Source: an uncultured bacterium
Lineage (GTDB): Bacteria; Actinomycetota; Acidimicrobiia; Spongiisociales; UBA4744
Assembly (NCBI GenBank): GCA_963827865.1
Contig: CAWHCO010000001.1
Span: 111,304 to 175,303 of the forward strand
Length of the DNA stretch: 64,000 bases
Direction of reading: 5' to 3'
Shown: positions 58,849-64,000 of the stretch, one piece after another
How positions within the stretch are numbered: the stretch's first letter is position 1
Layout of the letters: each line of letters opens with the position of its first letter
Notes under the pieces: model-generated
The model's input: only the letters and a program-made list of their open reading frames with translations
The model's database searches: none
What the model was told of the DNA's origin: nothing
Translations under genes and position numbers: made by a program

Positions 58849-59934
58849 ATGCGCACCGTGTCACTGTCACATCGGACGACGAGAATCTGGGTGCTCTGGC
58901 TGCTCGTGGGCACTCTTGCCGCGTTTTGGCTTCAGTTGGCCCTGGTGGAAGCCTACGACGGCAACTGGACGAGCCTGATCGGCGTGGGCCGAACGTCCGG
59001 GCTGAGGGTGCCCATCGAGAAAGAACTCGGCACCCTCGCCTACACCGTCCCCCATGGATATGACGGCCGGTATTCATTTCTGATCGCTGTCGACCCCTTC
59101 AACCACCGCGGAATGGCGGCGTTGTTCGATCGGCCCGCATACCGATACCGTCGCATCCTGTACTCGTTTCTGGCCGGGGGCGGTGGTCTCTTCAACGGAC
59201 CGACCGCGCTGGCGGGTCTCGTGATCCTGTCGGCGCTCGGCATCGGGCTCGCAACCGCTGCCGTGGCGGGACTGTCACTTCGACTGGGAGTCGGCCGGTG
59301 GGTGGTCGCCGGCGTACTTGCGAATCCTGGTGTCTGGCTGACGGTGCTCCTGTTGACACCGGATGCTCTGGCGTTGGGGCTTGCTTTGTCAGGCCTGCTG
59401 CTGTGGTGGGATCGCCGCTACACCTGGGCGGTGGTCATCCTTGCTCTCGCCGCCCTGACGAAAGAGCACTACTTGATCGTCGCCTTTTCGCTTGCCGGCT
59501 GGGCTTGGTTTCGCCGTGAACGAAAACACGCCGTAGCCCTCGTCCTGGGCGCGACGGCGCCAATCGCACTCTGGACCGCTTGGCTACTCCGAACGATCGA
59601 ACACGGGTCCCTCGCCGGAGGCAACCTCGCGCTCCTCGGGGTCCTGGAAGCCTCTCGCGTCTGGGGAACCATCCCGCCCACCGAACGAGGTTTCGCCGTG
59701 ATCACACTCATCGGCGTGATCTTCGCCGCCGTGCTTCCCATCAGAGGAGACTCGTTCCTTCGATGGCTCACATGGCCCTGGGTGGCACTGGCACTCGTGA
59801 CATCAGGATGGGTCTGGGACCTCGGCAACAATGCTGCGAGGGTGCTCGCTCCCGTCTGGGTGTTCGCGATCTTGTCGCTCGCGATGTGGATTCGTCGTCG
59901 CCGGACAGCGGTGCCACTTCCTGCACCGGACTAA
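58849..59934 (+). CDS. Membrane glycopolymer-modifying protein paralogue 3 (GT-C-like)
   Basis: [44 protein letters not shown]. Confidence 0.78.
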
Positions 59935-60364
59935 CCGACCTCTGCCCCCTGGAGCACGTCTCGCAGGAACTTGCCTGTGTAGCTCTCGGGGATGGTGATG
60001 ATCATCTCTGGTGGTCCTTCGGCGACGATGGCGCCACCTTCGTCGCCTCCCTCTGGTCCGAGGTCGACGATCCAGTCTGCGGTCTTGATGACGTCCAGGT
60101 TGTGTTCGATGATGACAACCGTGTTGCCACTGTCGACGAGTCGGCCGAGGACACCGAGGAGCTTGCGGATGTCTTCGAAGTGCAGCCCCGTGGTCGGTTC
60201 GTCGAGGATGTAGAAGGTGCGACCGGTCGATCGCCGTCCGAGTTCGGAGGCGAGCTTGACGCGTTGTGCTTCGCCGCCGGAAAGTGTCGGTGCGGGCTGG
60301 CCGAGCTTCAGATAGCCGAGCCCGACGTCGAAGATCGTCTGGAGGATACGGGCGATACTCGGCT
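59931..60364 (-). pseudogene. uvrA: Displaced duplicate of the uvrA 3' end (434 bp, startless)
   Basis: Colinear without indels with 62000-62433, ~40 mismatches by hand count; encodes [12 protein letters not shown]...LDEPTTGLH...EHN; preceded by in-frame TAG. Confidence 0.92.
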
Positions 60365-60469
60365 AGGCACTAGGACCCGTCTACATGCAGGACACGGCGA
60401 ACGGTGTCCTTGAGTCGTCGAGTCCGGAGTCGACACTCGGGGGCCGTTGCTCGTCATGGGGCCTTCCCA

Positions 60470-61612: not shown

Positions 61613-61896
61613 TCATCGACGTCGACAGCCACCACGCCCTGCATCACCCGACAGAGATGAGCAGGCAACACCTCGGCGTACGGTATCTCAGCACGCGTTC
61701 GAACGACTTCGTCCGTGAGGGGCACCTTGCGTCGGGTGCCGTCCTCGAAAACCACCTCGATGTGCGGCGATGCCGGTGCCGCCGAGTACATCGCCCACGC
61801 GAACGGCGCCGGATGCGGCTGGGTCGCCCACATCACCACGGGGACGGCGAGTTGTACCGCGAGGTACGCAACACCAAGTACGACGCGGAGTTTCAC
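61570..61896 (-). CDS. Small membrane-anchored partner of the HTTM protein (SdpA/DUF5819-like)
   Basis: N-terminal TM then FAWAMYS, similar to the W-x-M-F motif of HTTM partners; overlaps the HTTM start. Confidence 0.5.
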   Translation of the reverse strand: MKLRVVLGVAYLAVQLAVPVVMWATQPHPAPFAWAMYSAAPASPHIEVVFEDGTRRKVPLTDEVVRTRAEIPYAEVLPAHLCRVMQGVVAVDVDECRGTLRWLDGRHR

Positions 61897-61999
61897 GATG
61901 GCATTATCGGCTGCGGCCTCGACATTCCGCGGGCTTTTGCGGCAATCGACAGGACCAGGACCACGAGAGTCGTGGACAAGTCTGAGCCGTCCCGGCGGG

Positions 62000-64000
62000 C
62001 TAGTTGACCTCTGCCCCCTGGAGCACGTCTCGTAGGAACTTGCCGGTGTAGCTCTCAGGGATGGTGATGATCGTCTCTGGTGATCCTTCGGCGACGATCA
62101 TGCCGCCTTCGTCTCCTCCTTCGGGCCCGAGGTCGACGATCCAGTCGGCGGTCTTGATGACGTCGAGGTTGTGTTCGATGACGACAACCGTGTTGCCACT
62201 GTCGACGAGTCGGCCGAGAACACCCAGCAGCTTGCGGATGTCTTCGAAGTGCAGGCCGGTGGTCGGTTCGTCGAGGATGTAGAAGGTGCGGCCGGTCGAT
62301 CGCCGTCCAAGCTCTGAGGCGAGCTTGACGCGTTGGGCTTCACCGCCGGAGAGGGTCGGGGCCGGCTGGCCGAGTTTCAGGTAGCCGAGCCCAACATCGA
62401 AGATCGTCTGGAGGATCCGGGCGATACGCGGCTGGTTCTCGAAGAACCCGAGTGCCTCCTCGATCGACATGTTGAGCACGTCGGAGATGGAGCGGCCTTT
62501 CCACAGGATCTCGAGCGTTTCCCGGTTGTACCGCTTGCCTTTGCACACCTCGCACGGGACGTACACGTCGGGCAGGAAGTGCATCTCGATCTTGATGGTG
62601 CCGTCACCGGAGCACGCGTCGCATCTTCCACCCTTGACGTTGAACGAGAAGCGGCCGGGTTTGTAGCCACGCACCTTCGCTTCGGGTGTGGAGGCGAACA
62701 GGGTCCGGATGTGGTCGAACACTCCGGTGTAGGTGGCGGGGTTGGAGCGGGGTGTCCTACCGATCGGCGACTGGTCGATGTCGATCACCTTGTCGATCTG
62801 GTCGACTCCTTCGATCCGCTTGTGCCGACCGGGGAGGCTTCGGGATCGGTGGAGGGTGTGGTGGAGTCCTTTCGAGAGGATCTCTTGCACCAGCGACGAC
62901 TTGCCGCTGCCCGAGACGCCCGTGATGGCGATGAACAACCCGAGTGGGAAACGAACGTCGATCTCTTTCAGGTTGTTCTCTCTGGCACCGAGCACTGCGA
63001 CGGCGCCGCCGTTGCCGATGCGACGAGCACCTGGGACCGGGATGGATCGCCGTCCTGCGAGATAGTCGCCGGTGATCGACCCGGGTTCGGACGTGATGGC
63101 GTCGAGTGGGCCTTCGGCAACGATCATGCCACCGTGCTCACCGGCTCCCGGTCCGATGTCGACGATGTGGTCGGCGGTGCGGATGGTCTCTTCGTCGTGT
63201 TCGACGACGATGAGCGTGTTACCGAGGTCACGCAGCCGGACGAGAGTTTCGATGAGTCGTTGGTTGTCTCGCTGATGCAGACCGATGGATGGCTCGTCGA
63301 GAATGTAGAGGACGCCGACGAGCCCTGACCCGATCTGGGTGGCGAGCCTGATCCGTTGCGCCTCCCCTCCGGCAAGGGTGGCCGCCCCTCTGGCGAGGGT
63401 GAGATAGTCGAGGCCGACGTCGAGGAGGAATCGGAGTCGTGCTCTGATCTCTTTGAGGACGAGAGCAGCGATACGTTCCTGCCGTTCGGTGAGTTGGACT
63501 GCCTCGATGAACGCCGAGGCGTTGCGTAGCGACATCGCCGACAGCTCGGCGATGTTGATATCCCCGACCGTGACCGCGAGGGACACGGGGTTGAGTCGGG
63601 CCCCGTTGCAGGTGTTGCATGGCACTTCCCGCATGTACTCCTGGTAGTACTCGCGGGCCGAATCGGACTCTGCCTGTTCGTGGCGGCGCCGCAAGAACGG
63701 CAGGACCCCTTCGTAGGTGGTGGAGAAGCGGCGGTGCCTGCCGAACCGGTTCACGTAGGACACCTCGATCTTGGTGTCGCCGGTGCCGTTGAACAGCGCA
63801 TCCTGGTGCTCGGGGGCGAGGTCCTCGAACGGTGTGTCGATCGAGAAGCCGAGTTTGGCCGCGACGCCTTCCTGGAGCCGTTGGAAGTATCGGCCGCGGT
63901 GGCCGGCCCATGGGCTGAGGGCGCCTTCGGCGACGGACCGTTCCGGGTCGGGGACGACGAGTTCCGGGTCCACCTGGTAGCGGGTGCCGATCCCCGAGCA
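62000..64000 (-). CDS. uvrA: Excinuclease ABC subunit A, 3' part; gene begins beyond the window
   Basis: [30 protein letters not shown], Cys zinc-finger pairs, [12 protein letters not shown]; frame open to the window edge. Confidence 0.98.

What the first reader, a model, noticed from the sequence alone, without database searches (positions are those of the whole stretch)
59931..62433. 434-bp displaced uvrA 3' end brackets a 1.6-kb HTTM cassette: integration into uvrA?
Seen: 59931-60364 and 62000-62433 are direct repeats with no indels, ~40 mismatches by hand count but only 6 amino-acid changes; the extra copy has no start and is preceded by TAG. Between them lie only the HTTM gene pair. Known: islands that target protein genes (icd, guaA, prfC) bring a replacement 3' end and leave the native one displaced. 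Inference: mostly synonymous divergence means the two ends evolved as working uvrA alleles in different lineages, so either an integrase-less element uses uvrA as attB (crossover near AGCCG at 60364/62433) or cassettes are swapped by homologous recombination anchored on uvrA.
Basis: partly seen in the sequence, partly recalled or inferred. Interest (0 to 1): 0.7.

Follow-up and report, generated by a model that had tools for sequence, protein, structure and literature searches.

The report
Displaced uvrA tail: recombination scar
A dead second copy of the last 434 bases of the DNA-repair gene uvrA is real and marks where a two-gene membrane cassette was spliced in by ordinary recombination, a known kind of scar that is unusually well documented here.

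Summary
Window 59931-60364 and 62000-62433 are gapless direct repeats, 394/434 identical, with 6 amino-acid changes and dN/dS 0.06. The extra copy has no start codon and is preceded by in-frame stops.

It is not an assembly artefact. One independent 2.6-kb JGI contig spans the working uvrA end, the cassette, the same junction and the start of the dead copy. An ENA contig shows the same junction.

The dead copy is the resident uvrA end:
- It still abuts, with overlapping stop codons, the convergent membrane-protein gene that flanks uvrA in at least 13 related genomes and in a close "empty-site" contig.
- Its allele is the working uvrA end in another contig (97% identity).

The 108-aa/HTTM cassette is 96-100% identical across lineages whose uvrA differs by about 10%. 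It ends at three different right-hand junctions: uvrA -434, uvrA about -203, and inside the last 15 nt of the HTTM gene.

There is no recombinase and no fixed att core. The best reading is homology-anchored recombination in uvrA plus an illegitimate join, of the HFIR or single-crossover type.

Outside the window, the uvrA 5' end is also duplicated, twice, around a methyltransferase cassette.

This is a known kind of scar, of moderate interest.

The parts
62000..64000 (-). Working uvrA, the 3' two-thirds. The gene runs on past the window end to its start at G000:C1:176137.
   Evidence: Open frame to the window edge. The full 944-aa UvrA is read from the genome. It is 74-89% identical to uvrA of relatives.
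62000..62433 (-). Working copy of the 434-nt repeat ('X' allele), including the stop codon.
   Evidence: It is 99.5% identical to JGI contigs L078 and L079 and 90.8% identical to the fragment.
61897..61999 (.). uvrA-to-108-aa spacer. This is the left edge of the block that is nearly identical among lineages.
   Evidence: Identity among the X, Y and W lineages is 82-90% here. It rises to 96-100% from about 61900-61800 onwards.
61570..61896 (-). 108-aa ORF with a hydrophobic N-terminus, the first gene of the cassette.
   Evidence: ORF list. No Pfam or NCBIfam hit. It always precedes the HTTM gene in contigs L078, L079, L080, L091 and L092.
60470..61612 (-). HTTM + DCC1-like thiol-disulfide oxidoreductase fusion (380 aa), the second gene of the cassette.
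   Evidence: Pfam PF05090 at 3e-21 and PF04134 at 3e-15. A 13-member cluster at 90% identity or more has two alternative C-termini, HAPVVG and EAATG.
60424..60469 (-). First 46 nt after the HTTM stop, shared with contigs L091 and L077. Its last 11 nt (60424-60434, GTCGACTCCGG) are the start of an older, shorter displaced uvrA tail.
   Evidence: Gapless match of 46 nt with 3 mismatches to L091/L077. In L091 the homology runs on into a decayed uvrA tail, and the L091 working uvrA reads GTCGACTCCGGCAACACGG at that place.
60365..60423 (.). 59-nt filler of unknown origin between the old scar and the 434-nt fragment.
   Evidence: No similarity above shuffled controls to uvrA, to the L091 fragment or to the rest of the genome. 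It is present in L092 and L084.
59931..60364 (-). Displaced resident uvrA 3' end (pseudogene, 'Y' allele): 143 codons plus stop, no start codon.
   Evidence: It is 97.0% identical to the working uvrA end of L080 and groups with L080 in the tree. dN/dS against the working copy is 0.058.
58849..59934 (+). Third tandem paralogue of an AZOBR_p60025-like membrane protein, convergent on the fragment. Its stop (59932-59934) overlaps the fragment's stop (59931-59933).
   Evidence: NCBIfam NF046093 at 7.5e-40, below the curated cut-off. A homologue abuts the uvrA 3' end in G006, G007, G008, G010, G011, G012, G013, G014, G016, G019, G021, G032, G033 and G040 and in L085.

Best explanation
The 434-nt segment is the old 3' end of the resident uvrA gene. 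It was left behind when DNA from a sister lineage was recombined into this chromosome.

**What came in.** The incoming DNA carried a working uvrA end (X allele), the 108-aa/HTTM-DCC1 cassette and about 105 nt of trailing sequence.

**How it joined.** On the uvrA side the incoming DNA paired with the resident gene by RecA-type homologous recombination. The result is a working uvrA, the cassette, and a startless resident tail still attached to its original downstream neighbour.

**Possible routes.** The join could have arisen in one of two ways:
- directly, by homology-facilitated illegitimate recombination or break repair copying a foreign template and then end joining;
- through a recircularised fragment that integrated by a single crossover.

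No site-specific recombinase is needed for either.

**What is shown.**
- The structure is real.
- The fragment is the resident end.
- The two ends come from different functional alleles.
- The cassette sits at different junctions in different backgrounds.
- No recombinase gene is present.

**What is inferred.**
- The direction of transfer.
- The enzymology (RecA plus Ku/LigD-type joining).
- Whether a circle was involved.

The locus is a strain-variable cell-envelope island between uvrA and uvrC. There, uvrA acts as the conserved homology anchor.
For: 1. **Resident end.** The fragment and membrane-gene junction, with overlapping stops, is the arrangement found at the intact uvrA of at least 13 relatives. 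It is also found in the close contig L085: methyltransferase, paralogue, intact uvrA, no HTTM.
2. **Separate functional histories.** dS is 0.37 and dN/dS 0.058 between the copies. The fragment is 97% identical to the working uvrA end of L080 and 90.8% to its own neighbour, and the tree groups it with L080.
3. **Recent spread of the cassette.**
   - The 108-aa/HTTM genes are 96-100% identical among contigs whose uvrA is only 83-96% identical.
   - The uvrA-plus-cassette block is 98.7-99.2% identical between C1 and L078/L079.
   - The core genes downstream are only 88% identical between C1 and the alternate haplotype C2.
4. **Three different right-hand junctions for the same cassette.**
   - uvrA -434 after a 105-nt spacer, in C1, L084 and L092.
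   - uvrA about -203 after 35 nt, with a decayed tail (dN about 0.10), in L077 and L091.
   - Inside the last 15 nt of the HTTM gene, joined straight to a methyltransferase and uvrC with no uvrA tail, in C2, L078 and L083.
5. **Nested scars.** The C1 spacer still carries the first 11 nt of the older tail.
6. **No recombinase.** The 1.6 kb holds only the two cassette genes.
7. **End joining is available.** Ku is encoded in the genome.
8. **Experimental precedent.** DNA with one-ended homology gave mostly duplications of 109-950 bp of the homologous gene end by single crossover of recircularised molecules, and rarer HFIR (PMC3240628). Displacement of gene ends by such events has been proposed for T6SS and Rhs loci (PMC5361080, PMC2935791).
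9. **The same kind of scar at the other end of uvrA**.
Against: - The donor sequence beyond the 105-nt spacer is unknown. Microhomology at the joint cannot be scored, and the 59-nt filler is unexplained.
- Classical HFIR deletes recipient DNA rather than duplicating it. The duplication fits the single-crossover/circle variant better. That variant, however, predicts resident sequence upstream of -434, whereas the whole working gene here is X-type.
- Contig L080 shows that the Y allele also occurs directly upstream of the cassette. The first duplication could therefore have been made within one lineage, with the 9% divergence added later by allelic replacement.
- All comparison sequences are metagenome contigs from unknown, possibly related, samples.
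Confidence: 0.75

Rival explanations
1. The HTTM pair is a small site-specific mobile cassette without its own integrase. It uses the uvrA 3' end as attB, is mobilised in trans, carries a replacement uvrA end as part of attP, and crosses over near AGCCG at 60364/62433.
For: - The architecture mimics islands that target the 3' ends of protein genes: a direct repeat of the gene end, an intact gene and a displaced native end.
- C1, L084 and L092 share the same -434 boundary.
- A large serine integrase island was reported elsewhere in this window by an earlier agent (unchecked).
Against: - The shared boundary in C1, L084 and L092 is explained by common descent: they have the same spacer and the same filler.
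- In other backgrounds the same cassette ends at uvrA about -203 or inside the HTTM stop region with no uvrA repeat.
- The two repeat copies show 40 mismatches scattered along the 434 nt, with no identical core block.
- The near-identical block among lineages starts after the uvrA stop, not at -434.
- No recombinase, inverted repeats or att-like motif lie in the 1.6 kb.
Confidence: 0.06
2. This rival proposes the same kind of scar with a different history.

The 434-nt duplication was made within a single lineage, with both copies originally the Y allele. One way would be a circular cassette carrying 434 nt of uvrA that integrated by a single crossover. Later, ordinary homologous recombination replaced the working uvrA and the cassette with the X allele.

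On this reading the 9% divergence reflects a later allelic swap, not the founding event.
For: - L080 shows the Y-allele uvrA directly upstream of the same cassette.
- uvrA alleles are mosaic along their length.
- The uvrA-plus-cassette block is shared at 99% between the otherwise 88%-identical C1 and C2 backgrounds, which shows that such block replacements happen.
- Single-crossover duplications of 109-950 bp are the commonest experimental outcome (PMC3240628).
Against: - No contig shows Y-type uvrA together with the spacer and the fragment; L080 ends inside the HTTM gene.
- The history needs two events where one suffices.
- The C1 spacer carries a piece of an older scar that is also seen downstream of the cassette in the L091 background. 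This suggests the cassette arrived here from elsewhere with that trailing sequence.
Confidence: 0.15
3. The structure is an assembly artefact. Two co-occurring strains were merged, so that the uvrA end of one strain was placed after the cassette of another.
For: - The genome is a 79%-complete MAG that contains an alternate haplotype of this very region as a separate contig (C2).
- Several assemblies break inside the HTTM 3' end, where the haplotypes diverge.
Against: - The spacer/uvrA -434 joint is not a homologous switch point, so an assembler has no shared sequence on which to jump.
- The same joint occurs in a JGI short-read contig that also contains the working uvrA end and the cassette (L092), and in an ENA contig (L084).
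- A second, older fragment lies on a single 9.8-kb JGI contig together with an intact uvrA (L091).
- The fragments show pseudogene-type decay (dN about 0.10 in L077/L091).
Confidence: 0.02

Closest known systems
Homology-facilitated illegitimate recombination, and its single-crossover/recircularisation variant (de Vries & Wackernagel 2002; Prudhomme et al. 2002; Amarir-Bouhram et al. 2011, PMC3240628)
   Same: - Foreign DNA is integrated with homology at one end only and an illegitimate joint at the other.
- No recombinase is needed.
- Joint positions vary between events.
- The C2-type haplotype looks like the classical insertion-plus-deletion outcome.
- The window's structure looks like the duplication outcome. 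In E. coli, 56 of 60 events duplicated part of the homologous gene end; the 14 that were sequenced had duplications of 109-950 bp.
   Different: - Here it is seen as a natural footprint in uncultured Acidimicrobiia rather than in a transformation or conjugation assay.
- The donor sequence at the joint is unknown.
- The two copies differ by 9%, because donor and recipient were different lineages, or because of a later allelic swap.
C-terminal displacement arrays in rhs, cdiA and T6SS effector-immunity loci (Jackson et al. 2009, PMC2935791; Kirchberger et al. 2017, PMC5361080)
   Same: - An incoming module brings a new 3' end for a conserved gene and shifts the old end downstream as an orphan.
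- Successive events leave stacked remnants. Here these are 11 nt of an older tail plus the 434-nt tail, and two stacked 5' ends upstream.
- HFIR or circular intermediates have been proposed as the mechanism.
   Different: - Those systems diversify toxin tips with linked immunity genes.
- Here the displaced ends encode the same housekeeping function, and the cargo is unrelated (an HTTM-DCC1 membrane protein, and a methyltransferase).
- Both the 5' and the 3' ends of the gene are affected.
Integrase-mediated islands and prophages that insert into the 3' end of a protein gene and supply a replacement end (such as e14 and phage 21 in icd; from my own knowledge)
   Same: There is a direct repeat of the gene's 3' end, the gene stays intact, and the native end is displaced to the far side of the insert.
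   Different: - No integrase is present.
- There is no identical core.
- Junction positions differ between lineages.
- The cargo is only 1.6 kb.
Replacement flexible genomic islands for cell-envelope glycans in environmental populations, exchanged by homologous recombination in conserved flanks (for example PMC7771536 and PMC8430335, found; abstracts only were read)
   Same: A strain-variable cluster of membrane glycopolymer genes (GT87, AZOBR_p60025-like paralogues, methyltransferases) lies between conserved genes, with different content in co-occurring lineages.
   Different: The conserved anchor (uvrA) sits inside the variable region and bears scars on both sides. The scars show that one-ended events, not only clean double crossovers, contribute.

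Membership tests
Site-specific island targeting a protein-gene 3' end (icd/e14 type) | The element encodes, or is demonstrably served by, a site-specific recombinase. | tested here: not met
   Only a 108-aa ORF and an HTTM-DCC1 gene lie between the repeats. Action in trans is not testable with these tools.
Site-specific island targeting a protein-gene 3' end (icd/e14 type) | The same att boundary and a conserved identical core occur in independent insertions. | tested here: not met
   Boundaries are at uvrA -434 (C1, L084, L092), at uvrA about -203 (L077, L091), and inside the HTTM stop region with no repeat (C2, L078, L083). The 40 mismatches are spread over the repeat.
Site-specific island targeting a protein-gene 3' end (icd/e14 type) | A replacement 3' end keeps the target gene intact, and the native end is displaced. 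| tested here: met
   The working uvrA is open to its stop at 62000. The fragment is startless and adjoins the ancestral neighbour.
HFIR / one-ended homologous integration scar | Homology between incoming and resident DNA lies on one side of the insert only. | tested here: met
   uvrA is homologous on the left. To the right of the cassette, the three backgrounds share nothing.
HFIR / one-ended homologous integration scar | There is an illegitimate joint with 0-10 bp of microhomology. | tested here: inconclusive
   The joint is located to 60364-60367. The donor sequence past the joint is not available, and the 59-nt filler is of unknown origin.
HFIR / one-ended homologous integration scar | Joint positions differ between independent events. 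| tested here: met
   There are three right-hand joints for one cassette. There are three left-hand joints at the uvrA 5' end: +425 and +443 in C1 and about +105 in L090.
HFIR / one-ended homologous integration scar | Recipient DNA is deleted at the joint (classical form), or the homologous segment is duplicated (single-crossover form). | tested here: met
   The window shows a duplication of 434 nt. The C2-type haplotype lacks the paralogues and GT87, which fits an insertion with deletion. Both outcomes are described in PMC3240628.
C-terminal displacement array (rhs/cdiA/T6SS) | A conserved core gene is followed by orphaned 3' tips left by successive replacements. | tested here: met
   An older tail remnant (11 nt) and a 434-nt tail lie downstream of the working gene.
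C-terminal displacement array (rhs/cdiA/T6SS) | The tips are variable toxin domains with cognate immunity genes. | tested here: not met
   The tips are near-identical UvrA ABC-ATPase ends, with 6 amino-acid changes. The cargo is an HTTM-DCC1 membrane protein.

The most novel reading that the evidence does not exclude
The duplicated uvrA ends may work as recombinase-free, portable homology arms.

Once a cassette is bracketed by a working gene end and its stump, RecA could loop it out as a circle carrying one uvrA end. After transfer, that circle could re-enter any uvrA allele by a single crossover.

This would make uvrA a two-sided, integron-like docking platform for envelope-gene cassettes: the methyltransferase at the 5' end and the HTTM pair at the 3' end. 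The stacked stumps would then be a readable record of serial captures.
Probability: 0.12. Interest if true: 0.7.

Novelty: new member of a known kind. Interest (0 to 1): 0.4.

Why it matters
It gives a clear natural footprint of how accessory genes enter a chromosome without any mobile-element machinery. The setting is uncultured Acidimicrobiia, where no genetics exists.

The stumps are dated by their decay and typed by allele. They therefore record the order and direction of exchanges in a hypervariable cell-envelope island.

They also show that one-ended events contribute to island turnover, not only clean double crossovers. For annotation, such startless gene ends should be read as recombination scars, not as att sites or assembly errors.

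Tried and rejected
- **Read mapping.** Independent contigs were used instead.
- **Exact-protein look-ups.** Look-ups of the window's HTTM protein, 108-aa ORF and paralogue found nothing. Cluster members had to be used instead.
- **Same-genus genomes.** G001-G004 were useless for synteny. They lack the cassette, the paralogues and an assembled uvrA 3' end.
- **Genome-collection scan.** The scan with the HTTM protein gave one distant hit only.
- **SdpA-like partner.** The 108-aa ORF has no Pfam or NCBIfam support for this.
- **Decayed uvrA in the filler.** The 59-nt filler (60365-60423) scores no better than shuffles against uvrA or the L091 tail.
- **Deletion derivative.** I considered whether the L077/L091 short tail derives from the C1 fragment by deletion. 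I rejected this because the tails are only 83% identical while the adjacent HTTM genes are 98% identical.
- **Chimeric 5' end of the fragment.** I asked whether the first nucleotides of the fragment are X-like, which would be a crossover signature. Only one informative site exists, so nothing can be concluded.
- **Extra uvrA pieces in other genomes.** Apparent extra pieces in G006, G023 and G032 turned out to be contig breaks or a second strain, not displaced ends.
- **Prudhomme et al. 2002.** The paper is not held in the library.
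Full report
**1. The observation**

Window 59931-60364 and 62000-62433 are direct repeats at an offset of 2069 nt, gapless and 394/434 identical. Identity falls to 35% and 18% just outside them. Both copies lie on the minus strand and encode the last 143 codons of UvrA, with 6 amino-acid differences.

The upstream copy is the end of an open uvrA frame that leaves the window. The full gene is 944 aa and starts at G000:C1:176137. The downstream copy has no start codon and is preceded by in-frame stops.

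Between the copies are only two genes. One is a 108-aa ORF with no family hit. The other is a 380-aa HTTM + DCC1-like fusion. Nei-Gojobori counts give dS 0.37, dN 0.021 and dN/dS 0.058.

**2. The structure is real**

The window lies in a 1.96-Mb, 9-contig, 79%-complete MAG. Another contig of that MAG, C2, is an alternate haplotype of this same region. An artefact therefore had to be considered.

Independent assemblies answer the question:
- **L092** (JGI, 2579 bp) is colinear with window 62773-61573 at 99.1%. It is also colinear with 60533-60194 at 94.7%, gapless through the spacer/fragment joint. One short-read contig thus holds the working end, the cassette, the joint and 171 nt of the fragment.
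- **L084** (ENA, 26 kb) carries paralogue 3, the fragment, the spacer and the HTTM 3' end, with the same joint.
- **L091** (JGI, 9.8 kb) holds, on one contig, an intact uvrA, the cassette and a different, shorter uvrA tail.

**3. Which copy is native**

A homologue of the 361-aa membrane protein at 58849-59934 lies directly convergent on the 3' end of intact uvrA in at least 13 genomes of the same family and order. This protein is AZOBR_p60025-like (NCBIfam 7.5e-40, below the curated cut-off).

A closer metagenome contig, L085, shows the empty site: methyltransferase, one paralogue, intact uvrA with overlapping stops, and no HTTM pair. In the window it is the fragment, not the working gene, that keeps this overlapping-stop junction (59931-59934). 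The fragment is therefore the resident end, and the working end plus the cassette are the newcomers.

**4. Alleles**

Metagenome contigs show three uvrA alleles. X is found in C1, L078, L079, L082 and L092. Y is found in L080. W is found in L091. They are 83-96% identical along the gene.

The fragment is 97.0% identical to the working Y end of L080, and 90.8% identical to the X end beside it. In a tree with outgroups it falls with L080 and L084.

**5. The cassette moves; the joints differ**

The 108-aa/HTTM genes are 96-100% identical among the X, Y and W contigs. The rise in identity begins near 61900.

The uvrA(X)-plus-cassette block is 98.7-99.2% identical between C1 and L078/L079. Downstream core genes such as uvrC are only 88% identical between C1 and C2, and the methyltransferase only 80%.

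The same cassette ends in three ways:
- **C1, L084, L092:** HTTM ends ...HAPVVG*, followed by a 105-nt spacer and then uvrA -434.
- **L077, L091:** the same HTTM end, followed by about 35 nt and then a uvrA tail from about -203.
  - This tail is decayed: dN is about 0.10, with W-to-R and G-to-R changes in conserved motifs.
  - It abuts a different membrane gene.
- **C2, L078, L083:** the last 15 nt of the HTTM gene are replaced, so the protein ends ...EAATG*.
  - The gene is joined straight to a methyltransferase and uvrC.
  - There is no uvrA tail, no paralogues and no GT87.

The first 46 nt of the C1 spacer match L091. The last 11 of these (GTCGACTCCGG, 60424-60434) are the beginning of the older tail. 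The window thus holds nested scars. The remaining 59 nt match nothing.

**6. The mechanism**

Four observations argue against a site-specific element:
- There is no recombinase gene.
- There is no identical core; the 40 mismatches are scattered along the repeat.
- The joints differ between backgrounds.
- The shared -434 joint occurs only in contigs that also share the filler, which points to common descent.

The pattern is that expected from recombination anchored by homology in uvrA with an illegitimate join at the far end. In this scheme the C2 type is the classical insertion-with-deletion form. The window is the form that duplicates part of the anchor.

In E. coli, DNA with one-ended homology mostly gave such duplications, 109-950 bp long, through recircularisation and a single crossover. 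True HFIR was rarer (PMC3240628). The genome encodes Ku, so end joining or circularisation is plausible.

I could not decide between a direct join and a circle. A circle predicts resident sequence upstream of -434, yet the whole working gene is X-type. Because L080 shows the Y allele upstream of the same cassette, a two-step history also remains open: duplication within one lineage followed by allelic replacement.

**7. The other end of uvrA (outside the window)**

Upstream of the real uvrA start (C1:176137) lie two tandem copies of the uvrA leader plus its first 140-146 codons:
- C1:177006-177475, 98.9% identical to the real 5' end;
- C1:177476-177944, 97.4% identical.

They are separated from the working gene by an 821-bp SAM-methyltransferase cassette.

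A Logan contig from another run reproduces both joints of that cassette (L089). A more distant JGI contig has the same cassette, 83% identical, behind a shorter uvrA start of about 35 codons (L090). JGI contig L079 begins exactly at the repeat boundary.

uvrA is thus scarred on both sides. This fits its role as the conserved anchor inside a strain-variable envelope island. Among 14 genomes searched, only this one shows such end fragments.

**8. Comparison and verdict**

The closest known phenomena are:
- HFIR and single-crossover scars;
- the C-terminal displacement arrays of rhs, cdiA and T6SS loci (PMC2935791, PMC5361080);
- integrase-borne replacement ends, in outward form only.

Earlier notes of this scan describe similar stumps at rpoD, murB, dnaJ, coaBC and fhs in other phyla (unchecked). 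This suggests the pattern is common.

The finding is real and well explained. It is a new example of a known kind, of moderate interest. Its value lies in the population-level series of joints and in the two-sided, nested scars.

Noticed in passing
outside the window: G000:C1:176138-177944 (window-equivalent 64835-66641): The uvrA 5' end is duplicated twice in tandem (C1:177006-177475 and 177476-177944, 97-99% identical to the real start). Each copy has a leader and a start codon, giving 181-aa and 144-aa truncated ORFs. An 821-bp SAM-methyltransferase cassette lies between them and the working gene. The joints are at uvrA +425 and +443.
   Followed up: partly
G000:C2 (21.3 kb) versus G000:C1:145875-171914: The MAG contains a second haplotype of this region as a separate contig. 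It starts inside the HTTM 3' end and continues directly into a methyltransferase (80% identity) and uvrC (88%), with extra material further on. The bin therefore mixes two related populations.
   Followed up: partly
window 60470-60484, and contigs L078, L083 and C2: The HTTM-DCC1 protein has two alternative C-termini in the population (...SYHAPVVG and ...SYEAATG). The second is created by the recombination joint in the C2-type haplotype.
   Followed up: partly
L092:2410-2470 and L084:11455-11515 (equivalent to window 60305-60364): In a sister lineage, the first 60 nt of the same displaced fragment carry about 13 clustered substitutions and a 1-nt insertion, far denser than in the rest of the fragment. 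The cause could be a conversion patch or local decay.
   Followed up: no
window 56039-57639: The first of the three tandem AZOBR_p60025-like paralogues is split between two reading frames (56039-57343 and 56404-57639). It is either a frameshifted pseudogene or a sequencing error.
   Followed up: no
L060 (G033:C1:1658000-1674000), locus coordinates 6687-15574: In a genome of another family of the order, a 107-aa/HTTM pair lies in the same uvrC-uvrA interval, but on the opposite strand and not next to uvrA. The pair is therefore an old member of this island's gene pool.
   Followed up: partly
G002:C104 (1942-bp contig, same genus): This contig lies entirely inside uvrA and is broken at both ends. 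It stops 61 nt before the position of the -434 joint, which hints at strain variation or repeats at uvrA in that metagenome too.
   Followed up: no
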